Shown here: in pieces, positions 19,022 through 31,797 of the stretch
Layout of the letters: each line of letters starts with the position of its first letter
Numbering within the stretch: the stretch's first letter is position 1
From: Acidimicrobiia bacterium
GTDB taxonomy: Bacteria; Actinomycetota; Acidimicrobiia; Spongiisociales; ZC4RG35
Assembly: GCA_037969415.1 (NCBI GenBank)
Contig: JBBKXI010000024.1
Span: 1-42,643, forward strand
DNA length: 42,643 nucleotides
Direction: 5' to 3'
Program-made: the position numbers and the translations under genes
The notes under the pieces: generated by a model
The model's input: the letters and a program-made list of their open reading frames with translations, nothing else
The model's database searches: none
Told to the model about the DNA's origin: nothing

Positions 19022-20625
19022 AGCAACAAGTCGGCGTTCTCTTTGCGGAGCACTTTCTTGTCGAACTTGCCGGTTCCGGTCTTGGGCAGCTCAGCAATGA
19101 ACACGTAACGATCGGGTAGCCACCACTTTGCCACCCGGTCCGTGAGGAAAGCCTCCAGATCGGCCTCCGTGACCTCGGCCGAGGGTGCCTTGACCACAAA
19201 AGCGACCGGTCGTTCCTGCCACTTTTCATGATGTAGACCAACCACTGCGGCCTCGGAAACGTCGGGATGGGCCATGATCTCATTCTCAAGGTCGATCGAG
19301 GAGATCCACTCCCCGCCCGATTTGATCAGATCTTTCGCTCGATCCGTGATTCGGATGTAACCCTCGGGTGTGATCTTGCAGACATCTCCGGTCCGGAGCC
19401 ACCCGTCCACAAACTGTTTCGCAGACGCCTCTTCGTCCTTGTAGTACTCAGCGGCGATCCATGGGCCCCTGATCAGCAGTTCACCAAATGCGACGCCATC
19501 GTGGGGCAACTCCTCATCGATTTCGTCGACGATCTTGACCTGGAGACCGGGAATGGTGAGACCGGCCGTTTCCATGAAGTTGAGCTGTCGTTCCAGGTCC
19601 CATTCTTCCATCTCCGGCTTCATGACCGCAGCTGATGCAACGGGGTTGGTCTCGGTCATCCCCCAACCCTGGACCACCGTGATCCCTGCCTCCGTTCGGA
19701 ACCATTCGATCATGGAACGGGGCACGGCCGAGCCACCACATAGGAAAGCTCTGATGGATGACAATGTCGTCTCAGGATGCGCTTGCAAATACTGCTTGAT
19801 ACCCAACCAAACTGTCGGGACCCCGGCAGAAAAAGTGACTTTTTCGCTCTCCAGAAGCGGTACCAATAAATCAGGTGCCAGACCGGGCCCGGGATAAGTG
19901 AGTTTGGCACCCTGGGTCACCGCCATAAAGGGATAACCCCAGGCTGCAGCGTGGAACATCGGCACCACCGGGAGCACGTTGTCAGTGGGGAGAATTGCGA
20001 AGTTGGCCAGGTTGGAGATGGTATGGAGGTAGGTCGACCGCTGAGTGTAGGCCACCCCTTTGGGGTGACCGGTGGTGCCCGAGGTGTAGCAAAACATCAT
20101 CGGCGATCGCTCGTCGAGGACAGGCCAGGCGCCGTGCGCCTCCTCATCTGCGATCAGGTCTTCGTAGGCAATCGACCCGGGGATCCGGTCGTCAGCCTTG
20201 TCCCCCATCACAACAAAGTGCTGAACTGTCTCCAGCTGGTCGACGATCGGCGCCAGCAAACCGACAAGGTCGGGATCCACGAATATCGCCCGGTCCTCGG
20301 CATGGTTGATGATGTATACCAACTGCTCGGGATGGAGTCGTATGTTCAAAGTGTGACAGACCCGTCCGGTGTTGGCGGTGGCCCAGTAGAGCTCGTGGTG
20401 GCGACGGTTGTTCCATGCGAACGTCCCTATGGGTTCGCCCGCTTCGATCCCCATCCGGCCGAAGGCCGAGGCAAGGCGGCGAATCCGCTCGTCGGTTTCG
20501 CTGTAAGTCGACCTGGCGATGCTGAGATCGTGTTCAACGGAGACAATCTCTTGATCGGGAAAGAGCCAAACCGCCCTGTCGTACAGGGTGGAAAGGAGCA
20601 GGGGGAAGTCCTGCATATGGGGCAT
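19018..20625 (-). CDS. Fatty-acid--CoA ligase (AlkK/DmdB-like AMP-binding enzyme)
   Basis: [60 protein letters not shown]. Confidence 0.93.
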
Positions 20626-21239
20626 CAGGCGTCACCGAGCAGTTTTGACTTTTGAGCGGCGAACTCCTCGTCGCTCAGCTTGCCCTCGTCGTGTAGTCGT
20701 GAGAGCGTATCGAGCTGGTCAGAAACCGTCTTCGTTCCTCCCGCTCCACCAGACATCCCGGCGACATTCTGCTGGGTCATCCGTTTCTCCCGTTCAGCGT
20801 ATATCAACGACTGCACCCCTTCGGGGTTAGGGATGTCCTGGTACCGGCTCTGCCCGTGCGTGCCCGCCGACTCGATCATGAGGTCGCCCGTACCGAAGAT
20901 GCGTTCGAAGAAACTCTGATTGAAAGATACGTCATTAATCACCTCGTGTGGGATTTCTTTGCCGTGCTTCGAAACCAGCCCGGCGCGATAAATCACCCGT
21001 TCATTGGTTATCACGTGATTGGTCGTAAACCAACGGGTAAGGCCTCGAATCGTCAGCAGAAGTCCGAGAACACCCAAAGCCAACGCAATCCAGCCGGACC
21101 ACCCACTGGCGAATATCAGTCCTATCAATACTGCGATGAGCACCAGCAGCGCCCCTTCGCGGAGAATCCCCGACCAGTGCGGTCTGAACTCTGAGACGAT
21201 TACCTCATCGGAGCTGAGCAGTTTCTTTGGATATGCCAT
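20625..21239 (-). CDS. Membrane protein with bacterial PH domain and C-terminal SHOCT domain
   Basis: RPHW, two TMs, ITNERVI..G...ERIFGTGDL; C-terminal LSRLHDEGKLSDEEFAAQKSKLL; ATG 21239 preceded by TACTCT at 7 nt. Confidence 0.88.
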   Translation of the reverse strand: MAYPKKLLSSDEVIVSEFRPHWSGILREGALLVLIAVLIGLIFASGWSGWIALALGVLGLLLTIRGLTRWFTTNHVITNERVIYRAGLVSKHGKEIPHEVINDVSFNQSFFERIFGTGDLMIESAGTHGQSRYQDIPNPEGVQSLIYAEREKRMTQQNVAGMSGGAGGTKTVSDQLDTLSRLHDEGKLSDEEFAAQKSKLLGDA

Positions 21240-21287
21240 AGCTCCAAGAGTACCTACCATTTCTCATCCTCACCGAAAGAACTCCAA

Positions 21288-22535
21288 ATGACATCTCTGG
21301 ACCTAAGAAATTCGGCAAATCGCCGCGACAGGCTCACCAAACTCCGTCTCGAACGTCTTGTCCCTCGACTTATGAAGGATGCAAAGATCGATTGTTGGAT
21401 CCTGGTGTCTCGGGAATATGCAGAAGACCCGGTGGCCCAGTCGATGCTGCCAGCAACATGGATGTCGTCGAGGCGGCGGACAATCCTCTTGTTTCTGTCG
21501 GGCGAAGCAGAATTCGAGCGATCGGCCATAACTCGCTACGAAGTCGACGGGCTCTTTCCAGCTGGTTGGGACCCCGAATTGCAGCCCGACCAGTGGGATG
21601 CCGTGAGAGAGCGGGTCGTCGCGGCCAATCCAGCAACGATCGCCATCAGCACGTCAGAGTCGTTTGCCCATGCCGACGGGCTGACTCAAACCGAGTTCGG
21701 CCAGCTTGTCGCCGCTCTCGGATCGGGACTCGGCGACCGGATCGTCTCCGGGGAGGCTCTCGCCGTTGGATGGCTCCAGACCCGGATCCCGGAGGAAAAA
21801 CCTGTGTTCGAGGAGGCATGTCGCCGCGCCCATCAGATTCTGCGACGGGCGTTGTCACCAGAGGCGATTAAACCTGGTGAGACAACCACCAGGGACCTTG
21901 AGTGGTGGCTCCGTGACGAGGTCCAAGTGTTGGGATGTCCGGTGTGGTTCCATCCGTCGGTTTCGATTCAGCGTCGTGGAGCGGACCTCAGGGGTTCATT
22001 CGCTTCGGTCACCCGCGATGTTGCAATTGATCGAGGTGATCTGGTCCATATCGATTTCGGAATCGTCTGGGACCATCTCTGCACTGACCAACAACAACAG
22101 GGATACGTCTTACTCCCCGGAGAGACCGACATCGCGGACGGCCTCGATCGGGCAATGCAGATGGCGAACCAGGTTCAGGACATCCTCACGAGCAACTTCA
22201 GATCGGGGTCGAGCGGCAACGAAGTCCTCGCCGTCGCCCGCCAGCAAGCCAGTGCGGCCGGTCTCAATCCCACGATATACACCCACCCCATCGGGTACCA
22301 CGGCCACGGGGCCGGAGCCACCATTGGCCTGTGGGACCAACAGGACGGCGTTCCCGGATCCGGAGATGTCGCGCTCTTCGAACCGTCGGCATGGTCGATC
22401 GAATTGATGAACCGAACGGTTGTTCCAGAATGGGACAACCAGGAAATCGGCATCATGCTCGAAGAGGACGCCTGGTTTGAGGGCGAGATTGTGGAGTTCG
22501 TCGACGGAAGGCAGACCGAAATCTGGACGATCTAG
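21288..22535 (+). CDS. M24 family (Xaa-Pro aminopeptidase-like) metallopeptidase
   Basis: Metal ligand motifs HIDFG, TDQQ, YTHPIGYHGH, WSIE, MLEED. Confidence 0.88.
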   Translation: MTSLDLRNSANRRDRLTKLRLERLVPRLMKDAKIDCWILVSREYAEDPVAQSMLPATWMSSRRRTILLFLSGEAEFERSAITRYEVDGLFPAGWDPELQPDQWDAVRERVVAANPATIAISTSESFAHADGLTQTEFGQLVAALGSGLGDRIVSGEALAVGWLQTRIPEEKPVFEEACRRAHQILRRALSPEAIKPGETTTRDLEWWLRDEVQVLGCPVWFHPSVSIQRRGADLRGSFASVTRDVAIDRGDLVHIDFGIVWDHLCTDQQQQGYVLLPGETDIADGLDRAMQMANQVQDILTSNFRSGSSGNEVLAVARQQASAAGLNPTIYTHPIGYHGHGAGATIGLWDQQDGVPGSGDVALFEPSAWSIELMNRTVVPEWDNQEIGIMLEEDAWFEGEIVEFVDGRQTEIWTI

Positions 22536-22545
22536 ACCGTCTCAC

Positions 22546-22598
22546 CCGTTCTGTGAACGGTTTTGGTCTGCACAGCACAATTTTCCTTCACAGAACGG
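22546..22598. repeat. 12-bp perfect inverted repeat (REP-like element or convergent terminator)
   Basis: CCGTTCTGTGAA (22546-22557) ... TTCACAGAACGG (22587-22598) just after the peptidase stop. Confidence 0.6.
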
Positions 22599-22603
22599 TT
22601 TGG

Positions 22604-23043
22604 GAAAAAGGTCCAGACGCGAGAAGGTCCCGAGGGAGCTTTGACCGAAGTCTCTACCCTCTCGGGACTCTCGTCCGTTCGGTGCTAGGCCGGGGACCCA
22701 ACTCCGATCGGTAACTGTCGACCGAGGTCGGCAGCCCGTGCGATCCGAAGACCACACTGTCTGTGCGACCCGAAAGCCACACTCTCGATCCGAAGACCGA
22801 GGAGTCGATGAACCCGAAAGTTCACCTGTTGGAAGATCCGAAGATCTTCCGGTAAATCCGAAGACTCACCTTGGTCTCAGTTCCGTTCGACGATCCCGAA
22901 GGATCCCCGCCCGGGTAACTGGTCCCGGCCCTGAGCGTCCGGTTTCCCTTCTGCTCCGGGTAGCCGTCCCTGCGATTCAACGGTCCGGCTTTCGCCTTTC
23001 CGATCCTCGCTGGTCCGGTGCCTCCGGGTTTCCCCATCGGCGT
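22604..23043 (-). ncRNA. Predicted large structured ncRNA 'A' (~440 nt) with UUCG hairpin array
   Basis: 8 UUCG, 1 CUCG and 3 GAAA tetraloop hairpins on minus strand; many G-U wobbles that favour minus strand; long-range stem 22688-22698 with 22921-22930; own promoter; ends in CUUUUUC; no credible ORF. Confidence 0.8.
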
Positions 23044-23050
23044 GACCGGA

Positions 23051-23079
23051 AAAGTAGACCGCGACCCGAGGTTAGGCAA
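23051..23079 (-). promoter_or_regulatory. Primary-sigma promoter of RNA A
   Basis: TTGCCT (23079-23074), 17 nt, TACTTT (23056-23051); predicted TSS about 23043. Confidence 0.7.
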
Positions 23080-23086
23080 ATCGGGA

Positions 23087-23129
23087 CCGTGATTGATTTT
23101 CGCGAACCCTTTTTTGGTTTTCGCGAACC
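23087..23129. promoter_or_regulatory. Upstream motif CCGTGATTNNTTTTCGCGA plus TTTTCGCGAACC direct repeat
   Basis: Same motif at identical offset upstream of promoter B; 12-mer repeated at 23097 and 23118 (21-bp period). Confidence 0.55.
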
Positions 23130-23153
23130 TCAAATTTTCACCGCGTGGCGTCT

Positions 23154-23343
23154 GAAAAAGGTGCCAGAACGCGAGAAACCCCGAAGGAGCTACGACCGAA
23201 GTCGCCGCCCTCTCGGGGTTCTCTGACCACCTCACCAGGAAAGCGGGCCCCTGGATGGGGTGGTCTCGAAGAGACCGAAGTCCCTCCTATCCAGAACAAC
23301 CGAAGTTCTTCTTTCCCCGATATGGAGTCTCCCCCATTTCGGT
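23154..23343 (-). ncRNA. Predicted structured ncRNA 'B' (~190 nt), partial paralogue of RNA A
   Basis: Five consecutive hairpins (GAGA loop, three UUCG loops, one long imperfect stem); last ~70 nt homologous to 3' end of RNA A; own promoter. Confidence 0.75.
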
Positions 23344-23349
23344 AACGGG

Positions 23350-23378
23350 AAGGTAAATGAAGCACCGTCTTCCGTCAA
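23350..23378 (-). promoter_or_regulatory. Primary-sigma promoter of RNA B
   Basis: TTGACG (23378-23373), 17 nt, TACCTT (23355-23350); predicted TSS A at 23343. Confidence 0.75.
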
Positions 23379-23464
23379 CAAGAACCCGTGATTACTTTTC
23401 GCGACCTCTAGGTTTTCGTCCGCCCTCCACGAATCTGTCCCAGGCCGTCCTTATTATCAGAGAA

Positions 23465-24298
23465 ATGGTCCCGGTAAGAATTGAAACAACGACCGAAACA
23501 AACCAACCCACCACCGGGTTGACAACACTCTCGCCCAGCCGCGCCGGTGACTTCAAAACCTGTCCCCAGCTATTCAAGTTTCGGGCCATAGACAAGCGTC
23601 CCGAACCGACCACCGTCTACCAGGCACGAGGCACCACCGCCCATCTTGCCCTGGAACGCTTCTACGATCTCCCGGCTCCCGAACGCGATCCGGACACTCT
23701 TTTCGACCTCTTCCGTCAGGCCTGGACCGAGCTCCGCAGCGAAGATGAATACAAGGAACTGTTCGAGACCGCAGAGGCCGAGTCGGCCTGGGGTGTCGAA
23801 TCGATGAAACTCCTGGCCAACTACTTTTCTATTGAGGATCCGCGGCAAGTGGAGCCTTTTGACCGCGAAATGGATATGACCGAAGATCTCGACGGGATCG
23901 TTATCCGTGGAATCCTCGACCGAATCGACCGTGATGACGATGGGAGGCTGGTGATCACAGATTACAAGACGGGCAAGGCCCCACCCGAACGCTATGCATT
24001 GCCTGCCTTTTTCGCCCTCAAGATCTACGCTTTGTTGATCCGTAATCGGACCGGGGAGACACCCAAAGAAGTGAGGCTTCTCTACCTCAACGGGCCTACC
24101 CTCTATCGTCTCCCCGTCGACGACAAGCAACTCGACGCCATCGACAGCCAACTCCGGGCGTTGTGGGCGGCTATCGAAAGAGCCATGTCCTCGGACAACT
24201 ATCCGCCGCGACCGGGGCGGTTGTGCGACTGGTGTTCGTTCCAGGACATCTGTCCCGCATTCGCCAACAGCGAGTTACTCCTGGCCGATTCGGCTTAG
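23465..24298 (+). CDS. Stand-alone RecB-family PD-(D/E)XK nuclease (Cas4/AddB-like, 4-Cys)
   Basis: LSPS..FKTCP, RGTTAH, RGILDRID, ITDYKTG, CDWC-x5-C; ATG 23465 is 7 nt after TATTAT. Confidence 0.9.
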   Translation: MVPVRIETTTETNQPTTGLTTLSPSRAGDFKTCPQLFKFRAIDKRPEPTTVYQARGTTAHLALERFYDLPAPERDPDTLFDLFRQAWTELRSEDEYKELFETAEAESAWGVESMKLLANYFSIEDPRQVEPFDREMDMTEDLDGIVIRGILDRIDRDDDGRLVITDYKTGKAPPERYALPAFFALKIYALLIRNRTGETPKEVRLLYLNGPTLYRLPVDDKQLDAIDSQLRALWAAIERAMSSDNYPPRPGRLCDWCSFQDICPAFANSELLLADSA

Positions 24299-25575: not shown

Positions 25576-25688
25576 AAATGTGTCCTTGCCTCGCCCCTCG
25601 GAGGAAAAGCGCGGCGCTACCACTGAATCTAACCCATCTTGGCCCCCGCGCGGTCTTTCTGTCACACCGGGGACGTAGGGTTTGGGTT

Positions 25689-25802
25689 ATGAAAGAAATG
25701 ACAAGCGAATCCGTATTCTCCGACCCGGTTGCCTATCTGGCGAGCCTGGGAATCTCAGCGGAGTTGGTCGAGATCGAAACTCCGCTCCCAGTCGCTGCTT
25801 GA
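25689..25802 (+). CDS. Putative 37-aa small protein
   Basis: MKEMTSESVFSDPVAYLASLGISAELVEIETPLPVAA; TAGGGT -10 box 7 nt before ATG; fills the gap before adnA. Confidence 0.55.
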   Translation: MKEMTSESVFSDPVAYLASLGISAELVEIETPLPVAA

Positions 25803-25819
25803 TATCTACGATCGTTTCG

Positions 25820-28762
25820 ATGATTGAGGAACGGCGTCTCGAACCTGACCAATGGGGCGAGGAGCTAACGCAACCGGATGGCTACCAGTTGGTGGTTGCA
25901 GGCCCTGGAACTGGGAAGACTGAGTTCCTGGTCCGGCGGGTGGTCTCGATCGTCGAGTCGGGCCAGGCAACCCGAGACCAGATTCTGGTCCTCACCTTCT
26001 CCCGCCGAGCGGCTCGCGAGATCGGAAACCGAATCGAATCAGCCCTGGGCGGATCAACCATCCCGATCGAAGCAACCACATTTCATTCCCTCGCATTGCG
26101 TATCGTCGAAACGTCGAGATCGGGGGCGGCGCCGCAACCACTGACCACTCCGGAGCAGGTGGGATTGGTCAAAGATCTTCTCAAATCAGACGATCCGAGC
26201 AATTGGCCGCTCACCTACCGGGGAATCCTGGGAACCAGGGGGTTCGCCGAAGAGGTCGCGGACTTCCTCATGCGCTGTGCCGAGCGACTTCTCGGACCCG
26301 ACGAACTCGAAGCACGGGCGGCCAATCGCGCCGACTGGCAGGGCATTCCCGCCTTCTACAGACGATATCTCAATCAACTCGGCGAGGTTGACCGAATCGA
26401 CTACGGCGCTTTGCTGGTGGGGGCGGTGGATATCCTCGGGCAGGAATCGGGGCGCGACATCATTCCTAACTATCGATACGTTCTCGTCGACGAGTACCAG
26501 GACACGTCTCCGGCGCAGGCAGAGATGGCCCACTTGTTATCGGCTCCCCACGGCAATCTCACGGTGAGCGGCGACCCTTACCAGTCGATCTATTCGTTCC
26601 GGGGTGCTGAGCTGCGAAACATCGCCGACTTCCAGAACCGACACGAACAGGTGCGACGGATCGTCCTCAACAGGAGCTTCCGGGTACCGGAAGAGATCAT
26701 GAACTCGGCGTTGCGGGTGGTCAGCGAAGGGGACCTACCAGGTGGAGCAGGGGCGGTACACCCCGCACCACACCATGGACGGGTCGAAACGTATATCTTT
26801 GACCAGGAAACCGCCGAAGCCGAATGGATCGCTTCCCAGATCGAACGGTCGATACACGTCGACGGAAACGACCCGGGCGAACTAGCAATTCTGGTCCGCT
26901 CCAAGCGGGAGATGCTCAATGAGATCAGCCGGTCCCTCGACCGTCGCCAAATCCCTCACAACAGGCCAGACCGCCGTCTCGTCGATCACCCCGCCATCAA
27001 ACTGATCTCAGATCTAGTTGCCCTCGCCGCACATCATGGAGACGACGCCGACGACTTTGGGACCACAGATCAGGTTGCTCGCCGGCTCCTCCTTGGCCCG
27101 CTGGTTGGGATGACACTCGGCGAACTTCGCACCATCACCGGCACCCGAAATCGGGAAGGCTCCTGGATCGGCGCCTTCCAGCAAACCGACGCCGTCACCG
27201 ATCTCGTTCCAATCCTCCAGGAGTCCGATTGGGCCATCACGACGACCGCGTCCGACGGGTTTTGGAGACTATGGACTTCCTCGGGCCGATTCAACCGGTT
27301 CGTCGACAACCCGGAACGCCAGGAATGGCGGTCAGCCCTTGCCTCCTTTGCACAGGTCGTTGATCGGCAGGCCGACCGCGACCCGACGGTGACCCTGCAG
27401 CGATTCTTCGAACTGGCCGAAGACGAGGCTTTCGAAGCCACCCCGCTGCTCAGCCATCGCGGGCGCGAGTCAGCAGTCGTCCTCACCACTTTGCATCAAG
27501 CCAAAGGTCTCGAGTTCAAAGAGGTTTTTATTGCAAATGCAGTGGAAGGAGTCTTCCCCGACCTGCGAAGGAGTCGGCGAATGTTGCGTCCAGAGTTGCT
27601 CTCGCCAGAACGCACCACCGATCCGTCTGCCGTTTCCCAGTTCCAGGTCCAAGAAGAAATGAGGCTGGCGTACACAGCAATGACGCGTGCCTCGCTGCGG
27701 GTGGTCTGGACAGCTACAGACGCCGGCATCGACCAGGGCGAACAGCGACCATCACGTTTTCTCGTCGCCGCCTCGGGCCACACATCGCTGTCCGATATCG
27801 GTCGCCCACAATCAACTGAACAGCCACCGATCACAGTCGGGGAGGCCGAGACCCGTCTCCGGCGTGATGCTGCCGACCCTGCCCTCGCCCCGGCCGCCCG
27901 GCTCGCCGCGGTAGCCACTCTGGCAAAATCACCGGTTTCTAGATGGGAGGCGGGCCGATTCGCCGGTCTTCCCGAAAAGGGTCCCGATCAGCCGATCCTG
28001 GACAAAAAACCGTCAATGTCTCCCAGCCAGGCAGATAGCTACTCACGGTGCCCCCGGGTCTATGCGATCGAGCGGCGATTACAAATCGGCGACCCAACTT
28101 CGGTGTACGCCACTTCGGGAACCCTGATCCACACTGCCCTGGAACGTGCCGAAAACGAGATCGTGGGGACCGGGAAAGTTCACGGCAATGTGGACGTGGC
28201 CCTTGGCTATCTCCGGGAAGAATGGAAATCGGTCGACTTCGGGACCGACGCCCTAAACCAGGCATGGTTGGCCAGCGCCGAACGCAAGGTGTCCAACCTT
28301 TACGAAAAGTGGCCGGCAAATAGCGGCCCCCCGGTCGAACTAGAGAAGCAGGTCACTCTTGAAGTGGATGGTGTCCTCTGGCGGGGGGTAATCGACCGGC
28401 TCGAGTTAACGGACGCTGGTTATCGCATCGTTGACTACAAGACGGGCAATAGCGCCATCAAGGTGAACGACGCCAAAGAGTCAATTCAACTCGGGTTCTA
28501 CGCCCTGGCAGTGAATGCCATGAGCGAGGGGGTTCCGGTCGTCGCCGCCGAACTCTGGTATCCAGCCGAGAAGTCAGTCAGTCTGACCACCAGGACGCTC
28601 GATCTCGCCAACCTCGCAAAGATCGAGGAGAAGATGCGCGAGGTCACGGCAGCAATCAGTTCTGAAGTGTGGACACCGAAGGTTTCCGTTTTGTGCAACC
28701 GTTGCGCCTTCAAGACTTCTTGTCCTGCGTGGCCCGAAGGCAAAGGGGCATTTGTGGCATGA
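25820..28762 (+). CDS. adnA: AdnA-like UvrD helicase-RecB nuclease subunit
   Basis: AGPGTGKT, VDEYQD, GDPYQSIYSFRGA, TTLHQAKGLEF, EEMRLAYTAMTRA; nuclease GVIDRL..VDYKTG with 4 Cys; ATG 25820 7 nt after TACGAT. Confidence 0.88.
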   Translation: MIEERRLEPDQWGEELTQPDGYQLVVAGPGTGKTEFLVRRVVSIVESGQATRDQILVLTFSRRAAREIGNRIESALGGSTIPIEATTFHSLALRIVETSRSGAAPQPLTTPEQVGLVKDLLKSDDPSNWPLTYRGILGTRGFAEEVADFLMRCAERLLGPDELEARAANRADWQGIPAFYRRYLNQLGEVDRIDYGALLVGAVDILGQESGRDIIPNYRYVLVDEYQDTSPAQAEMAHLLSAPHGNLTVSGDPYQSIYSFRGAELRNIADFQNRHEQVRRIVLNRSFRVPEEIMNSALRVVSEGDLPGGAGAVHPAPHHGRVETYIFDQETAEAEWIASQIERSIHVDGNDPGELAILVRSKREMLNEISRSLDRRQIPHNRPDRRLVDHPAIKLISDLVALAAHHGDDADDFGTTDQVARRLLLGPLVGMTLGELRTITGTRNREGSWIGAFQQTDAVTDLVPILQESDWAITTTASDGFWRLWTSSGRFNRFVDNPERQEWRSALASFAQVVDRQADRDPTVTLQRFFELAEDEAFEATPLLSHRGRESAVVLTTLHQAKGLEFKEVFIANAVEGVFPDLRRSRRMLRPELLSPERTTDPSAVSQFQVQEEMRLAYTAMTRASLRVVWTATDAGIDQGEQRPSRFLVAASGHTSLSDIGRPQSTEQPPITVGEAETRLRRDAADPALAPAARLAAVATLAKSPVSRWEAGRFAGLPEKGPDQPILDKKPSMSPSQADSYSRCPRVYAIERRLQIGDPTSVYATSGTLIHTALERAENEIVGTGKVHGNVDVALGYLREEWKSVDFGTDALNQAWLASAERKVSNLYEKWPANSGPPVELEKQVTLEVDGVLWRGVIDRLELTDAGYRIVDYKTGNSAIKVNDAKESIQLGFYALAVNAMSEGVPVVAAELWYPAEKSVSLTTRTLDLANLAKIEEKMREVTAAISSEVWTPKVSVLCNRCAFKTSCPAWPEGKGAFVA

Positions 28763-31700
28763 ACGGACTAACCCCAACTCCCGAACAGCAAGCAATCCTC
28801 GACCTCGGGCTCGATTCGATTCGAGTGTCAGCCGGGGCCGGAACCGGGAAGACTACGACGGTGGCCATGGCGATTTCCAACCTTATCGCCAACCACGAAA
28901 TCGAACCAGAACACGTCCTGGGTATGACATTTACCAACAAGGCGGCGTCCGAATTGGCCGACCGGGTCAGAACTTTTCTCGGGGTGGGAGTCGATCCCGG
29001 CAGAGAGGTGGAGGTGCATACCTATCACGGATTTGCCGCCCAGATTCTCAGCGAATTCGGGCTTCTCGCTGGGTTGGAACAGCGGCCCGAAGTTATCACC
29101 CCGACCTTTTCTCGCCAGCTCCTCAGTGAGACATTCTTGAACACCGAATACCACGAGATTGATATCACCTGGTCGGGGCGGCTCGACCAGGTGAAACAAC
29201 TAGGCGACCGGCTCGGAGACCACCTGCTCGAACCGACCGATCTGCTCAATAGCGCGCATCCGGACGAAAAGCCATGGCCGGAGCGGGTTGAGATGCTGGA
29301 AACCTTGCAGAAGTACCAGAAAAACAAAAAGACTCTGAGCGTCGTTGACTATGCCGATTTGATCTCGCTGTCCACAAGACTCGTCGCCTCCGATGCGAGT
29401 GTCGCCACAACCATCCGGGACCGCTACAAGGTGGTGGTCCTCGACGAATATCAGGACACCAATCCTGCCCAGCGAGTCTTACTCACCACCTTGTTTGGCA
29501 ACGGGTTTCCAGTTATTGCGGTCGGCGATGTCGATCAGACGATCTACGAATGGCGGGGGGCCTCCGCCGAGAACTTCGACAAGTTCCCCCAACATTTCAA
29601 GCGCCCGGATGGCTCGGTCCCATTGCTCAGGGAACTCACCGACAATTACCGGTCGGGGCAAGCGATCCTCGATGTGGCAAACCAGATCCGCCTTCAAGCC
29701 AATCCCGATGCCGCTGCTCTCCGGAGCCCCAACCGGAGCGACGGTTTGATAGAGACCCGGTGGGCGGGCGACGCCATGATCGAAGCGGAGTGGCTGGCAC
29801 GCCGATTTGAAGAAATCCACGAAGCCGGAACCCCGTGGTCAGAAATGGCTGTGTTATTCCGAAAGAACAAAGACTTCGCCATGATTGTTGAAGCCTTCGC
29901 CGATCACGAGATCCCCATCGAGGTCGCCAACCTCGGCGGACTGATGTCTATCCCAGAGATCGCCGAGATCAAGGCCTGGATGACTCTTCTCGCCCGACCG
30001 GGAGATGCGGCATCAGCCCTTCAGATTCTCACCGGCAGCCGCTACCGGCTCGGCCTGGCCGACCTTGCACCCATCTCGCGATGGATCGCGGCTAACTCGA
30101 ATTCCCCCGCCGATGTTCTCCCTCCAATCACATTCATGGAAGGCATCGAAGCTCTCGACCACATCGAAGGTCTCCGCGACGACGCCCGGTTCGGATATCA
30201 GCATTTCATCCGGATATATCTCGACCTTGTCAGGGAAACACAGGGTGCCTCATTAGTGGAGGTTGCCCGTTTGATTCTGGACCGAACCCGGGCCTGGCCG
30301 GACATCGAAGCTCTCCCGGAAGTGGCCCGTCTCACCGCACGGCTCAATATCTACCGTTTTCTCGACCTCGCCGAGGATTGGAGCCCGTTGCGGGGAAGAT
30401 CGTCGTTGGCTGTGTTTCTTGATTATCTCGACGCCATGGAGCAGGAGCCAGCGGAGGAACTCGACGCCGCCCGGCTCAGCGGAGAAGATGCGGTGACCCT
30501 GGTCACGGTGCATCGGGCCAAGGGCCTGGAATGGGAGGTTGTGGCGATTCCGGCGGTCACCGAAGGAAACTTCCCGTCCGGGTCTCGCATGCACCCCGAT
30601 CCGAAACATCCAAGCGTGCTCCCTGTTGAGTACCGAGTCGACTCGATGTTCGAGCAGATGCCCCTCGACGAGAACGAGCGGAAAGCGTTTTTCCAGGAGC
30701 TAAATCTCAACCAGGAATGGCGGGTTGCCTATGTTGCCGCGACCCGTGCCAAGTCGCGCCTTCTGGTGTCGGGGGCCTACTGGTACGGACATCCGGAAAC
30801 CACAGTCAATCCCAAGGACCCTTCGCCATTGTTCGACCTAATCAGTTCTCACCCCCACAGCCACAATGCCGGCAAGGACGACGTTCCCGATCGGCCCGAA
30901 CTGTTACGTCGCGCACAACCAGATGGTGAACCCGACCCGCTGTTCCCGGAAGGTTGGCGCTCATCGCTTCGAAGCGCCATCACCGACCCCGACCACATTT
31001 CCTCTCTCGCCCGCAACCTCGACCTCGAATCGGACGTCACTGTGAATGAAACTGAATGGACCGAGCGGTTGTTCGAACTCCCCGACGCTTTAGAGCTCGA
31101 AGAGAGTCCTGATACGACGACGGTTTCTGTCACCGCGTTGGTCACCTACGCCGGTTGCCCGAAACAATATTTCTGGTCTGAAGTCGATCGGCTCCCCCGG
31201 CGTCGCAACCCGGCAGCCGTGGCCGGGACCGAGGTCCACCGGCGGATCGAACTCCACCAGAAGGGGGCGATTCCATTCGAAGAGCTCTCCCGCGAGATCT
31301 ACGACGTTCCCGACGGCGACTACCGCCCGGGTGCCTTTCGCACCTTCGAGTCATCTCGATTCGCATCCACTCCCGCAGCACGGGTCGAGGCACCCTTCAC
31401 ACTCGCAGTGAGCGAGCAGGTGAAGGTGCGGGGTCGCATCGACGCCATCTACGACGACGACGGGGTCTGGGAGATAGTTGATTTCAAGAGCGGCCGGCCA
31501 GGTAATAATCCGGCACGCCAAGTTCAACTCGAGGCATACGCCGTTGCGTGCTCGGATGTCGACTTCGGGCTAAACCCTTTGAAGTCAATGACTGTGACTT
31601 TCGCCTACCTCGGCGACGGGCTCACCGAGGAATCATCCGAAGTTGACGAATCGTGGCTCAGCTCTGCCCGGAAGCATTTGGAAGAATTGGGTGCCGGAAT

Positions 31701-31797
31701 TGTACAACAAGACTTTTTCCCCACTCCGTCGCCGCAATGCCAGGGATGTGACTTTCTCCAGTTCTGTAGCGCCGGCCAGGCATACTTGAAACAGTGA
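28759..31797 (+). CDS. adnB: AdnB-like UvrD helicase-RecB nuclease subunit
   Basis: AGAGTGKT, LDEYQDTN, GDVDQTIYEWRGA, NYRS, TVHRAKGLEW, YVAATRAK; nuclease RGRIDAI..VDFKSG, QLEAY; ATGA overlap with adnA. Confidence 0.9.
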   Translation: MNGLTPTPEQQAILDLGLDSIRVSAGAGTGKTTTVAMAISNLIANHEIEPEHVLGMTFTNKAASELADRVRTFLGVGVDPGREVEVHTYHGFAAQILSEFGLLAGLEQRPEVITPTFSRQLLSETFLNTEYHEIDITWSGRLDQVKQLGDRLGDHLLEPTDLLNSAHPDEKPWPERVEMLETLQKYQKNKKTLSVVDYADLISLSTRLVASDASVATTIRDRYKVVVLDEYQDTNPAQRVLLTTLFGNGFPVIAVGDVDQTIYEWRGASAENFDKFPQHFKRPDGSVPLLRELTDNYRSGQAILDVANQIRLQANPDAAALRSPNRSDGLIETRWAGDAMIEAEWLARRFEEIHEAGTPWSEMAVLFRKNKDFAMIVEAFADHEIPIEVANLGGLMSIPEIAEIKAWMTLLARPGDAASALQILTGSRYRLGLADLAPISRWIAANSNSPADVLPPITFMEGIEALDHIEGLRDDARFGYQHFIRIYLDLVRETQGASLVEVARLILDRTRAWPDIEALPEVARLTARLNIYRFLDLAEDWSPLRGRSSLAVFLDYLDAMEQEPAEELDAARLSGEDAVTLVTVHRAKGLEWEVVAIPAVTEGNFPSGSRMHPDPKHPSVLPVEYRVDSMFEQMPLDENERKAFFQELNLNQEWRVAYVAATRAKSRLLVSGAYWYGHPETTVNPKDPSPLFDLISSHPHSHNAGKDDVPDRPELLRRAQPDGEPDPLFPEGWRSSLRSAITDPDHISSLARNLDLESDVTVNETEWTERLFELPDALELEESPDTTTVSVTALVTYAGCPKQYFWSEVDRLPRRRNPAAVAGTEVHRRIELHQKGAIPFEELSREIYDVPDGDYRPGAFRTFESSRFASTPAARVEAPFTLAVSEQVKVRGRIDAIYDDDGVWEIVDFKSGRPGNNPARQVQLEAYAVACSDVDFGLNPLKSMTVTFAYLGDGLTEESSEVDESWLSSARKHLEELGAGIVQQDFFPTPSPQCQGCDFLQFCSAGQAYLKQ

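What the first reader, a model, noticed from the sequence alone, without database searches (positions are those of the whole stretch)
22688..22930. Array of seven 18-20-nt tetraloop hairpins enclosed by one long-range stem in RNA A
Seen (minus strand): GGUGAGUC-UUCG-GAUUUACC (22851-70), GGAAGAUC-UUCG-GAUCUUCC (22831-50), GGUGAACU-UUCG-GGUUCAUC (22807-26), CUCGGUC-UUCG-GAUCGAG (22784-801), GUGUGGCU-UUCG-GGUCGCAC (22763-82), GUGUGGUC-UUCG-GAUCGCAC (22738-57), CUGCCGAC-CUCG-GUCGACAG (22715-34). Linkers are 0-5 nt, and a longer UUCG arm lies at 22878-22921. Stem sequences differ while stem length (7-8 bp) and loop are held constant, i.e. covariation between repeats. Five units have G-U pairs only on the minus strand; the CUCG unit has one C-A mismatch. 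GGCCGGGACC (22930-21) pairs with GGUCCCCGGCC (22698-88) to close the domain. Inference: a multivalent scaffold or protein sponge (CsrB-like logic but with UUCG loops), or a self-assembling RNA.
Basis: partly seen in the sequence, partly recalled or inferred. Interest (0 to 1): 0.85.

Follow-up and report, generated by a model that had tools for sequence, protein, structure and literature searches.

The report
Tetraloop hairpin string in new RNA
The seven small hairpins are real RNA structure and form the variable middle of a previously undescribed noncoding RNA of about 430 bases found in one order of Acidimicrobiia, whose function is still unknown.

Summary
They fold in the minimum-energy structure. 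Across 13 homologues 97% of cells pair, and 21 of 54 pairs show double-sided changes. G·U pairs outnumber A·C mismatches 105 to 5, so this is RNA on the minus strand, not DNA. It is the only such cluster in the 2.46-Mb genome.

The enclosing long-range stem is not supported. Its 3' half is the invariant loop (UCCCCGG) of a local, covarying hairpin.

The array is the variable middle of a stand-alone RNA gene ("RNA A", about 23043-22612). Upstream are two CGCGAAAA boxes and a TTGnC-N17-TACnTT promoter. The gene ends in a conserved 52-nt hairpin. A shorter sister gene ("RNA B") lies just upstream with the same build.

Such cassettes (1-5 per locus) occupy one syntenic locus in a single order of Acidimicrobiia. 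Homologues carry 1-8 hairpins capped by UNCG or GNRA loops, so UUCG is not a recognition site.

Rfam and five literature searches gave nothing. RNA-library contigs from four studies cover RNA A.

Best reading: a modular structural string in a new ncRNA. A sponge role or an RNA polymerase-binding role stays open.

The parts
23396..23420 (-). RNA B upstream boxes: degenerate distal box (ACGAAAA, about 23420-23413) and proximal TCGCGAAAA (23404-23396)
   Evidence: Read. The same two-box layout lies about 183 and 163 nt before the 3' hairpin in short-class cassettes of other genomes.
23350..23378 (-). RNA B core promoter: TTGACG (23378-23373), 17-nt spacer, TACCTT (23355-23350)
   Evidence: Read. 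Same build as the RNA A promoter. It overlaps the first codons of the + strand ORF that begins at 23357.
23165..23343 (-). RNA B, about 175 nt (ends inferred): a UUCG hairpin, a covarying hairpin with invariant loop GGGGCCCGCUUUCC, then the conserved long 3' hairpin (23223-23173)
   Evidence: Alignment of 13 loci with invariant columns. The short class is the largest cassette cluster, 56 of 174 distinct cassettes. The 3' hairpin pattern matches at 23217-23180.
23097..23126 (-). RNA A upstream boxes: TCGCGAAAA twice (23126-23118 and 23105-23097), 21 nt apart
   Evidence: Invariant in 13 of 13 aligned loci. The stricter form (box, 0-3 bases, CAA; at most one mismatch in the box) gave 42 genome-wide matches, and only these two carry an unmismatched box. 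The looser pattern YCGCGAAAANCA has 5 matches in G000: these two, one before dnaB on contig C78, and two others. Boxes are found upstream of nearly every 3' hairpin in loci L021-L139.
23051..23079 (-). RNA A core promoter: TTGCCT (23079-23074), 17-nt spacer, TACTTT (23056-23051). The inferred start is near A23043.
   Evidence: 46 of 47 homologues have TCTACnTT at a fixed distance from the box and from the conserved CACGCCGA start. The generic sigma-70 scan found none in 22000-24000. The start site is inferred, not mapped.
22922..23043 (-). RNA A 5' domain: P1 hairpin (ACGCCGA-GGGG-AAA-CCC-GGAGGC) and further GNRA-capped hairpins, including GG-GAAA-CC
   Evidence: RNAalifold pairs with compensatory changes. 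Wide alignment of 46 homologues.
22878..22921 (-). M1 arm: extended hairpin holding the 21-nt motif GGGGAUCCUUCGGGAUCGUCG (22908-22888)
   Evidence: 20 of its 21 positions are invariant and one nearly invariant (G024 has U) in the 13 aligned sequences. The motif is kept with at most 3 mismatches in 45 distinct homologues. Pairs are listed.
22715..22870 (-). The array: seven tetraloop hairpins H1-H7 (six UUCG, one CUCG), stems of 7-8 bp, linkers of 0-5 nt
   Evidence: fold; covariation; G·U asymmetry; unique cluster; variable number and loop type in homologues; H5 and H6 are 17 of 20 identical.
22675..22711 (-). M2 hairpin: CCG-A-UCGG...CCGA-A-CGG enclosing a covarying stem with invariant loop UCCCCGG (22696-22690).
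22621..22672 (-). Conserved long 3' hairpin: GAGAGUCCCGAGAGGG..GAC-UUCG-GUC..GCUCCCUCGGGACCUUCUC
   Evidence: Only two copies in the genome, both in this locus. The exact pattern occurs in 46 of 301 genomes of the class, all in the window's order. In genome contigs it occurs in 119 or more stretches; nearly all of the 80 listed records are titled Acidimicrobiia/Acidimicrobiaceae or Actinomycetota/Actinomycetes, seven Acidobacteriota/Acidobacteria and three 'uncultured bacterium'.
22605..22620 (-). Tail GCGUCUGGACC followed by UUUUU (22609-22605). Possible termination point; the 3' end is not mapped.
   Evidence: Read. The U run is not conserved in relatives, and the terminator scan did not call it.

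Best explanation
The seven hairpins are the variable central module of a stand-alone, highly structured noncoding RNA, 'RNA A' (about 430 nt, minus strand, roughly 23043-22612).

Shown:
- The gene has its own conserved promoter: two CGCGAAAA boxes, TTGnC, 17 nt, TACnTT.
- It has a 5' domain of tetraloop-capped hairpins.
- An almost invariant hairpin M1 comes next, then the array.
- After the array is a hairpin M2 with invariant loop UCCCCGG.
- A conserved 52-nt 3' hairpin ends the gene.
- The stems are kept by compensatory change.
- The structure exists only on the minus strand.
- The units are gained and lost: 1-8 per homologue, with duplicated units in some relatives, and H5/H6 are near-identical in the window.
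- The caps alternate between the two most stable tetraloop classes, UNCG and GNRA.
- The same promoter-body-3'-hairpin cassette is used by a shorter sister RNA B just upstream, and by 1-5 tandem RNA genes at the same syntenic locus throughout one order of Acidimicrobiia.

Inferred:
- The array works by shape, not by sequence.
- It is a string of autonomous, very stable 7-8-bp hairpins that grew by tandem duplication.
- It leaves almost no single-stranded RNA, so the transcript should be rigid and hard for single-strand-specific RNases to attack.
- It sets the distance between the conserved M1 and M2 elements, and possibly the number of docking sites for a partner.
- The conserved elements (M1, the M2 loop, the 3' hairpin) are more likely to be the specific contact sites.
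- The hairpin string is the scaffold or expansion part.
For: Anatomy and fold.

Homologues: 11 of 12 genomes of the same genus have a match, 72-89% identical, and 10 of them match nearly end to end. They are aligned.

Covariation: 21 of 54 array pairs have double-sided changes, 97.3% of cells pair, and 0 of 500 shuffles reach this.

Strand: 105 G·U against 5 A·C.

Noncoding: no frame stays open across the 13 homologues, and the two overlapping ORFs have no Pfam match.

Uniqueness: it is the only UUCG-hairpin cluster in the genome, and the 3' hairpin occurs twice, both here.

Modularity: 47 distinct homologues carry 1-8 perfect hairpins. Loops are UNCG 108, GNRA 53, other 56. The commonest stem length is 8 bp for UNCG (49 of 108) and 7 bp for GNRA (18 of 53). 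There is an extra duplicated unit in G001 and G009, and H5/H6 are 17 of 20 identical. In one genome (L059) the 5' domain has also gained tandem GAAA hairpins.

Cassette build and promoter.

Fixed locus: a PD-(D/E)XK nuclease gene lies in 110 of 139 loci held, UvrD-nuclease in 103, and a bPH_2 protein in 80.

Presence in RNA libraries: contigs of 361, 350, 231 and 218 nt from four runs of four studies lie wholly inside 22673-23035, at 95-96% identity for the two longest. The tool warns that this does not prove transcription.
Against: No experiment or raw-read data fixes the ends, the strand or the abundance.

The RNA-library contigs stop just 5' of the 3' hairpin (22673 and 22677). The mature 3' end may therefore differ from the one assumed.

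The narrow stem length (7-8 bp with either loop class) is not required of a mere spacer and fits a partner that measures the hairpins. So does the parallel change of H5 and H6 in relatives.

The structure tested came from the same alignment, which flatters the slide control.

The 13 aligned sequences are close kin, so counts of cells overstate independent events.

No protein partner, target or phenotype is known. The functional part of this statement is inference only.
Confidence: 0.5

Rival explanations
1. Multivalent protein sponge or scaffold. Each hairpin is a binding unit for one protein, which the RNA titrates or assembles. Copy number sets capacity.
For: There are many units of one size. 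Stem length peaks at 7-8 bp with both UNCG and GNRA caps in 47 homologues. Unit number varies between genera. H5 and H6 are kept alike and change in parallel in relatives, as expected for sites of a dimer. The stems are under selection.
Against: No loop or stem sequence is shared between units across genera, and caps switch between UNCG and GNRA. Any binder would therefore have to read shape alone. Some homologues have only 1-3 perfect hairpins. Neither CsrA nor Hfq was found in the genome, which is 93% complete. No RNA-binding protein gene is linked to the locus: neighbours are a PD-(D/E)XK nuclease, AdnAB-like helicase-nucleases, GDH, an M24 peptidase, a bPH_2 protein and an acyl-CoA ligase.
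Confidence: 0.2
2. RNA A (perhaps together with RNA B) is this order's abundant RNA polymerase-associating RNA. It would be the functional counterpart of 6S, Ms1 or CoRP RNA with a different architecture.
For: The Rfam 6S model finds nothing in G000 or in 150 of 150 sampled genomes of the class. RNase P, SRP and tmRNA are found elsewhere in G000. Passages of PMC11077062 propose that each species has one abundant RNAP-associating RNA that may differ from 6S and Ms1, and describe the roughly 500-nt CoRP RNA as genus-restricted. Like Ms1, RNA A has a fixed syntenic locus and a fast-changing sequence. 'PH' is one of the Ms1 synteny phrases in Table 3 of PMC9130861, and a bPH_2 gene flanks this locus in 80 of 139 loci. 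RNA-library contigs cover RNA A.
Against: There is no rod with a central bubble. The consensus and minimum-energy folds are strings of hairpins. A 5'-3' closing helix is not conserved in 45 homologues. No Rfam family matches the locus even at E up to 10, apart from one chance microRNA hit. No HAD-IB hydrolase or oxidoreductase neighbour appears among the 16 real flanking ORFs scanned. The Rfam 6S model finds nothing in any Acidimicrobiia genome sampled, so its absence here says little.
Confidence: 0.15
3. A base-pairing regulatory RNA. The invariant C-rich loop of M2 (UCCCCGG), and the invariant loop of RNA B, would pair with G-rich mRNA sites. The hairpin string and the 3' hairpin would only stabilise the RNA.
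For: In both RNA A and RNA B, the hairpin just before the 3' hairpin has a covarying stem and an invariant loop. C-rich loops as seed regions in actinobacterial sRNAs such as 6C are recalled knowledge, not tested here. No Hfq was found, which fits chaperone-independent pairing.
Against: 430 nt with a conserved 5' domain and M1 hairpin is far more than a seed carrier needs. No target was predicted or tested. Other long cassette classes in the order lack the M2 motif. The Rfam 6C model does not match.
Confidence: 0.1
4. A DNA-level element (REP-like palindromes, cruciforms, protein-binding repeats) or a protein-coding stretch, not an RNA.
For: ORFs of 137 aa (minus strand) and 162 aa (plus strand) overlap the region. 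Palindromic DNA would read the same on both strands.
Against: 105 G·U against 5 A·C cells means the helices exist on one strand only. It is a single locus, not dispersed. Open frames are not conserved among 13 homologues, and the ORFs have no Pfam match. Promoter and 3' hairpin bracket the element.
Confidence: 0.03

Closest known systems
CsrB/RsmY/RsmZ-type sponge RNAs
   Same: A stand-alone RNA made of many short hairpins. Unit number varies between relatives. Sister genes share a dedicated upstream activating site, and the RNA ends in a stable 3' hairpin.
   Different: The units carry no GGA or other shared loop motif. The caps are closed UNCG or GNRA tetraloops. No CsrA was found in the genome. 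No Rfam model matches.
Ms1, 6S and CoRP RNAs (abundant RNA polymerase-associating RNAs)
   Same: A stand-alone, own-promoter RNA of several hundred nucleotides in Actinomycetota, at a fixed syntenic locus, with sequence that diverges fast between families. A PH-domain gene is a neighbour, as in some Ms1 loci (Table 3 of PMC9130861). No 6S is detectable in the lineage.
   Different: No rod with a central bubble. No HAD-IB hydrolase neighbour. No Rfam match. Binding to RNAP is untested. CoRP homologues are reported only in Corynebacterium (passage of PMC11077062).
Large orphan structured RNAs of bacteria (OLE, GOLLD, ROOL, raiA; names recalled, all in Rfam)
   Same: Several hundred nucleotides, many covarying helices, taxon-restricted, function unknown at discovery.
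   Different: None matches by Rfam. As far as I recall, those classes have one conserved multi-helix core. They are not a cassette with a shared promoter and 3' hairpin around a fast-changing string of equal-sized tetraloop hairpins.
Variable regions or expansion segments of RNase P RNA, rRNA and tmRNA (general knowledge)
   Same: Lineage-specific insertions between conserved elements, built from helices capped by UNCG or GNRA tetraloops, tolerated in variable number and length.
   Different: Those usually lengthen or branch an existing helix. Here up to seven separate hairpins of equal size stand in tandem, 0-5 nt apart.

Membership tests
CsrB/RsmZ-type sponge RNA | Repeated GGA motifs exposed in hairpin loops or linkers | tested here: not met
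   The array loops are UUCG or CUCG in the window. In homologues they are UNCG, GNRA or other. No motif is shared across units.
CsrB/RsmZ-type sponge RNA | The partner protein CsrA/RsmA is encoded in the genome | tested here: not met
   PF02599 has 0 matches in G000 (93% complete). The control search finds it in 3 of 14 control genomes.
CsrB/RsmZ-type sponge RNA | Match to an Rfam model of the family | tested here: not met
   No Rfam 15 family reaches its gathering score in the window. At E up to 10 on 22300-23500 there is only one chance microRNA hit.
6S RNA | Match to Rfam RF00013 | tested here: not met
   locus; whole genome, 0 matches; 0 of 150 genomes of the class.
6S RNA / Ms1 | Long irregular rod with a central bubble, the ends paired | tested here: not met
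   The consensus fold and the minimum-energy fold are strings of local hairpins. The 5'-3' helix seen in the window's fold is not better than shuffles in most of the 45 homologues.
Ms1 | Synteny with a HAD-IB hydrolase ('inhibition of morphological differentiation') gene and an oxidoreductase gene (PMC9130861, Tables 1-3, passages read) | tested here: not met
   None of the 16 real flanking ORFs scanned with Pfam between 12201 and 37019 is a HAD hydrolase. One listed phrase, 'PH', is met: a bPH_2 gene at 20625-21260, present in 80 of 139 loci.
Ms1 / 6S / CoRP | Physical association with RNA polymerase core or holoenzyme | not testable with these tools
   This needs RIP-seq or a gel shift.
REP/BIME-like dispersed palindromes | Many dispersed copies of the same unit in the genome | tested here: not met
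   There are 66 perfect 7-bp UUCG hairpins genome-wide and this is the only cluster. The hairpin stems differ from one another. The 3' hairpin occurs only twice, both here.
Intrinsic terminator (for the conserved 3' hairpin) | G+C-rich hairpin directly followed by a U run | tested here: inconclusive
   In the window a U5 run lies 11 nt after the stem. It is absent or displaced in most relatives. The scan did not call it. The hairpin sequence is far more conserved than a terminator needs.
New cassette family (double box, body, conserved 3' hairpin) of one Acidimicrobiia order | CGCGAAAA box or boxes, TTGnC-N17-TACnTT promoter, conserved 3' hairpin, locus between the PD-(D/E)XK nuclease and bPH_2 genes | tested here: met
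   Window. Family.

The most novel reading that the evidence does not exclude
RNA A and RNA B are the founding members of an undescribed class of abundant RNA polymerase-associating (or otherwise housekeeping) RNAs. They would be built as strings of tetraloop hairpins rather than as a 6S-like rod. They are made from a dedicated expression cassette whose CGCGAAAA-box regulator also controls the replicative helicase gene dnaB. This would tie the RNA's level to replication or growth state in an order of Acidimicrobiia that has no detectable 6S or Ms1.
Probability: 0.15. Interest if true: 0.8.

Novelty: new variant of a known kind. Interest (0 to 1): 0.62.

Why it matters
Acidimicrobiia are common in soils, sediments and waters and are mostly uncultured. 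Almost nothing is known about their RNA biology, and the Rfam 6S model did not match in any of the 150 genomes of the class sampled.

This locus gives a well-delimited new RNA family:
- a clear promoter and a conserved 3' hairpin;
- strong covariation;
- more than 170 distinct natural variants in which the number and cap type of the hairpins change.

That variation is a ready-made natural experiment on how modular hairpin strings evolve and what they are for. If the RNA proves to bind RNA polymerase or another abundant protein, it would add a third or fourth architecture to the 6S/Ms1/CoRP group. If it is only a stable scaffold, it is still a compact natural example of an RNA made almost entirely of very stable tetraloop hairpins, which is of interest for RNA design.

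Tried and rejected
1. Known RNA families. Rfam 15 gave nothing over the whole window. At E up to 10 over 22300-23500 the only hit was a chance mir-3524 match outside the RNA. No tRNA or tmRNA lies in the window.

2. Universal RNAs in disguise. RNase P, SRP and tmRNA are found elsewhere in G000.

3. I also looked for another closing helix. The window's minimum-energy fold pairs 5' CCGGACC..GCGAG with the 3' tail, and RNAalifold kept GCGAG:CUCGC in 10-12 of 13 sequences. A duplex test on 45 homologues was no better than shuffles for most of them. This is left open.

4. Ms1 by synteny. There is no HAD hydrolase nearby. The string 'acidimicrobi' occurs 0 times in the main text of PMC9130861. Its supplementary species list could not be seen and might bear on this.

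5. Complementary distribution with 6S. This was uninformative, with 0 of 150 in the whole class.

6. Double box across the phylum. The exact pattern matched in 3 of 401 genomes (G000, one of the same order, one elsewhere; the control pattern hit once). The pattern is too strict to say much.

7. Another order. Seven loci around PD-(D/E)XK homologues (30-38% identical, possibly paralogues) from a different family showed 0-3 tetraloop hairpins in 3.7 kb and dense coding. Nothing comparable was found there.

8. Literature. Five searches and a term search of the preprint 10.64898/2026.10.21.760802 (0 hits) found no description of this RNA.

9. Read laying. The four RNA-library runs gave no cover on 22300-22651 or 23048-23600. 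No DNA run was laid beside them. The habitat labels of small-share runs are not used.

10. The generic sigma-70 scan found no promoter, and its three terminator-like sites are not those of RNA A or B.

Unpublished genomes. G027 is counted in the tally (34 of 41). G277 is counted (46 of 301; family f1 26 of 35; genus g13 6 of 6). No sequence of either was aligned or is quoted.
Full report
**The observation**

There are seven hairpins of 18-20 nt, six with UUCG loops and one with CUCG. Stems are 7-8 bp and linkers 0-5 nt. A longer UUCG-capped arm lies at 22921-22878.

All of them form in the minimum-energy folds. For 22600-23140 the z-score is -5.51 and 0 of 100 shuffles fold as well. For the inferred transcript 23043-22612 the energy is -213.2 kcal/mol and the z-score -5.64, again with 0 of 100 shuffles.

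The cluster is not a genomic commonplace. The 2.46-Mb assembly holds 66 perfect 7-bp UUCG hairpins on both strands. Six lie in 22749-22862 on the minus strand, and no other place has three within 300 nt.

**Homologues and covariation**

A search with 22600-23240 found the locus in 11 of 12 genomes of the same genus, at 72-89% identity. Ten of these matched nearly end to end. Parts of it were found in 34 of 41 relatives in all. This tally includes the unpublished genome G027.

On an alignment of 13 sequences (A1 and A2), RNAalifold predicts 120 pairs, 29 of them with changes on both sides.

For the seven array helices alone (54 pairs, 675 cells):
- 97.3% of cells pair, against 91.9 +/- 0.5 in shuffles.
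- 21 pairs have double-sided changes, against 8.2 +/- 2.0 in shuffles.
- 0 of 500 shuffles reach either value.
- Sliding the partners by 1-3 columns drops pairing to 25-49%.

Two caveats apply. The sequences are kin, and the structure came from this same alignment.

G·U pairs outnumber A·C mismatches 105 to 5 in the array, and 222 to 12 over the whole RNA. The helices therefore exist only on the minus strand, which means RNA.

No reading frame stays open across the homologues. The two overlapping ORFs have no Pfam match.

**The part that fails**

The proposed closing stem (22930-22921 with 22698-22688) is not conserved. In 45 distinct homologues the best contiguous complement between the region 5' of M1 and the 3' motif averages 6.18 bp, against 5.74 bp for shuffles. 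In the window it is 7 bp, which 26 of 200 shuffles reach.

The 3' motif is instead the top of a local hairpin. UCCCCGG is an invariant loop. The six pairs flanking it are canonical in 37-45 of 45 sequences, with GC/AU/GU, UG/CG/UA and UA/CG exchanges. RNAalifold and the minimum-energy fold agree.

I found no other well-supported long-range closure.

**What the array belongs to**

The region between the M24 peptidase gene (21288-22535, +) and the PD-(D/E)XK nuclease gene (to 24298, +) holds two RNA genes on the minus strand.

RNA A has these parts:
- two invariant TCGCGAAAA boxes (23126-23118 and 23105-23097);
- TTGCCT, a 17-nt spacer, then TACTTT (23079-23051);
- a conserved start CACGCCGA near 23043;
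- a 5' domain of tetraloop hairpins;
- the almost invariant M1 hairpin (GGGGAUCCUUCGGGAUCGUCG, 22908-22888);
- the array;
- the M2 hairpin (22711-22675);
- a 52-nt conserved 3' hairpin (22672-22621).

RNA B (about 23343-23165) has the same kind of boxes, promoter and 3' hairpin around a short body. That body carries an invariant loop GGGGCCCGCUUUCC.

The 3' hairpin occurs twice in the genome, both times here.

**Distribution**

Nearly all of the 80 listed records are titled Acidimicrobiia/Acidimicrobiaceae or Actinomycetota/Actinomycetes. Seven are labelled Acidobacteriota/Acidobacteria and three 'uncultured bacterium' by their depositors.

Nearly every hairpin has the box or boxes 160-650 nt upstream, and loci hold 1-5 such cassettes.

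Among 174 distinct cassettes, the short class (RNA B type) and the long class with M1 and M2 (RNA A type, 45 sequences) are the largest. Other long classes share only the ends.

In 46 of 47 RNA A homologues the -10 element sits at a fixed distance from the box.

In a sample of 301 genomes of the class, the exact hairpin pattern occurs in 46. All 46 are in families the tool labels as the window's order: f1 26/35, f2 8/16, f9 5/9, f5 3/3, f6 2/3, f12 1/7. None of the genomes labelled only 'same class' has it. This tally includes the unpublished genome G277.

The locus is syntenic. The PD-(D/E)XK gene lies in 110 of 139 loci held, the AdnAB-like UvrD-nuclease in 103, the bPH_2/SHOCT protein in 80, GDH in 57 and the acyl-CoA ligase in 56.

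**The array across homologues**

Between M1 and M2, 47 distinct homologues have 1-8 perfect tetraloop hairpins. RNAfold counts 2-10 loops.

Of the 217 hairpins, 108 have UNCG caps, 53 GNRA and 56 other. The commonest stem is 8 bp for UNCG (49 of 108) and 7 bp for GNRA (18 of 53).

The window's genus has the longest all-UNCG version, with seven hairpins. Some genera have mostly GNRA caps (L028, L133, L090).

Units are gained by duplication. G001 and G009 have an extra copy of H4. H5 and H6 of the window are 17 of 20 identical and change in parallel in relatives. One genome has added tandem GAAA hairpins in the 5' domain instead (L059).

So the array is a variable, selected, shape-defined module. 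UUCG is not a recognition motif.

**Expression**

Four RNA-library runs from four studies hold contigs lying wholly within 22673-23035. Their lengths are 361, 350, 231 and 218 nt, and the two longest show 13 differences each.

The tool warns that contigs in an RNA library do not prove transcription and cannot give ends or strand. I treat this as a weak hint that agrees with the inferred start.

**Mechanism**

Shown:
- It is an RNA gene with a conserved promoter and 3' hairpin.
- The stems are under selection.
- Unit number and cap type vary.

Inferred:
- The string acts by shape. It is a rigid, almost fully paired scaffold that resists single-strand-specific RNases.
- It spaces the conserved M1 and M2 elements and may offer repeated docking surfaces.

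I put about 0.5 on this structural-module reading. About 0.2 goes to a true multivalent sponge, which the uniform stem length and the H5/H6 concerted change favour and the lack of any shared sequence disfavours. About 0.15 goes to an RNA polymerase-associating role and about 0.1 to base pairing through the C-rich M2 loop. A DNA-level or coding element is very unlikely.

**Comparison with known families**

It is not a CsrB/Rsm RNA: there are no GGA motifs, no CsrA and no Rfam hit.

It is not recognisably 6S or Ms1. There is no Rfam hit. There is no rod with a bubble. There is no HAD-IB hydrolase neighbour (criteria from passages of PMC9130861).

It does share with Ms1 and CoRP the pattern of a fixed locus, fast sequence drift and several hundred nucleotides. 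Passages of PMC11077062 argue that lineages without 6S or Ms1 should have their own RNAP-associating RNA. The Rfam 6S model finds nothing in 150 of 150 genomes of this class.

Five literature searches found no description of this RNA. For both papers I read search listings and passages only, and supplements were closed.

**Verdict**

The hairpin array is real and well supported as RNA structure. The enclosing stem is not. The array is the expandable middle of a new cassette-built ncRNA family restricted, as far as sampled, to one order of Acidimicrobiia. Its function is open. Interest 0.62.

Noticed in passing
G000 contig C78, minus strand about 2600-2376 (locus L151); the gene is L151 1023-2375: A third promoter of the same build: a distal CGCGAAAT box, a proximal TCGCGAAAAACA box, TTGGTC, then TCTATGTT. 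It precedes a leader of about 115 nt and dnaB (Pfam DnaB and DnaB_C, E 2.9e-109). All 12 promoter regions recovered (G000 and 11 of its 12 genus relatives) contain it. In most relatives the distal site is an inverted repeat CGCGAAAACA-N5-7-TGTTTTCGCG, so the box looks like a transcription-factor site shared by dnaB, RNA A and RNA B. The box pattern is rare: 5 hits in G000 (control 3) and 5 in G011 (control 2).
   Followed up: partly
window 23165-23343 (-): RNA B is a sister RNA gene of about 175 nt with its own boxes, promoter and 3' hairpin, and an invariant loop GGGGCCCGCUUUCC. It is the commonest cassette class in the order, at 56 of 174 distinct cassettes.
   Followed up: partly
window 22738-22782 (-): Hairpins H5 and H6 are 17 of 20 identical. 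In relatives their 3' arms change in parallel (CGCAC, CACAC, CAUGC in both). This points to concerted evolution, repeated duplication or a constraint that the two stay alike.
   Followed up: partly
window 23357-23540 (+): The ATG at 23357 that opens the PD-(D/E)XK ORF lies inside the RNA B promoter. The Pfam domain begins at residue 57, and tblastn to most relatives aligns only about 245-250 residues. The true start is probably some 180 nt downstream.
   Followed up: no
G000 contigs C3, C10, C14, C67, C74, C83, C168 and others: A 23-nt palindromic hairpin, GGCCGTTGCGAAAAGCAACGGCC, occurs in 9 dispersed copies (up to 3 mismatches). It looks REP-like or terminator-like and is unrelated to the array.
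   Followed up: no
L030, L065, L071 (genome-contig loci), G028:C104, G316:C69: Some genomes of the order carry 3-5 tandem cassettes at the locus. Short and long bodies alternate, and the 3' hairpins within a locus are identical or nearly so.
   Followed up: no
G012 contigs C14 and C76: One relative holds two copies of the whole RNA B and RNA A locus on different contigs (89% and 87% identical to the window). This may be strain mixture in the bin or a real duplication.
   Followed up: no
window 22673-22677 and 23026-23035: RNA-library contigs from different studies end just 5' of the conserved 3' hairpin and within about 10-17 nt of the inferred start. The cause could be an assembly or reverse-transcription stop at the very stable hairpin, or processing.
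   Followed up: no
window 25682-31797 (+): Two adjacent genes of 1026 and 1042 aa each combine a UvrD helicase with a C-terminal PD-(D/E)XK nuclease. This layout looks AdnAB-like (name recalled). It is conserved next to the RNA locus in 103 of 139 loci.
   Followed up: no
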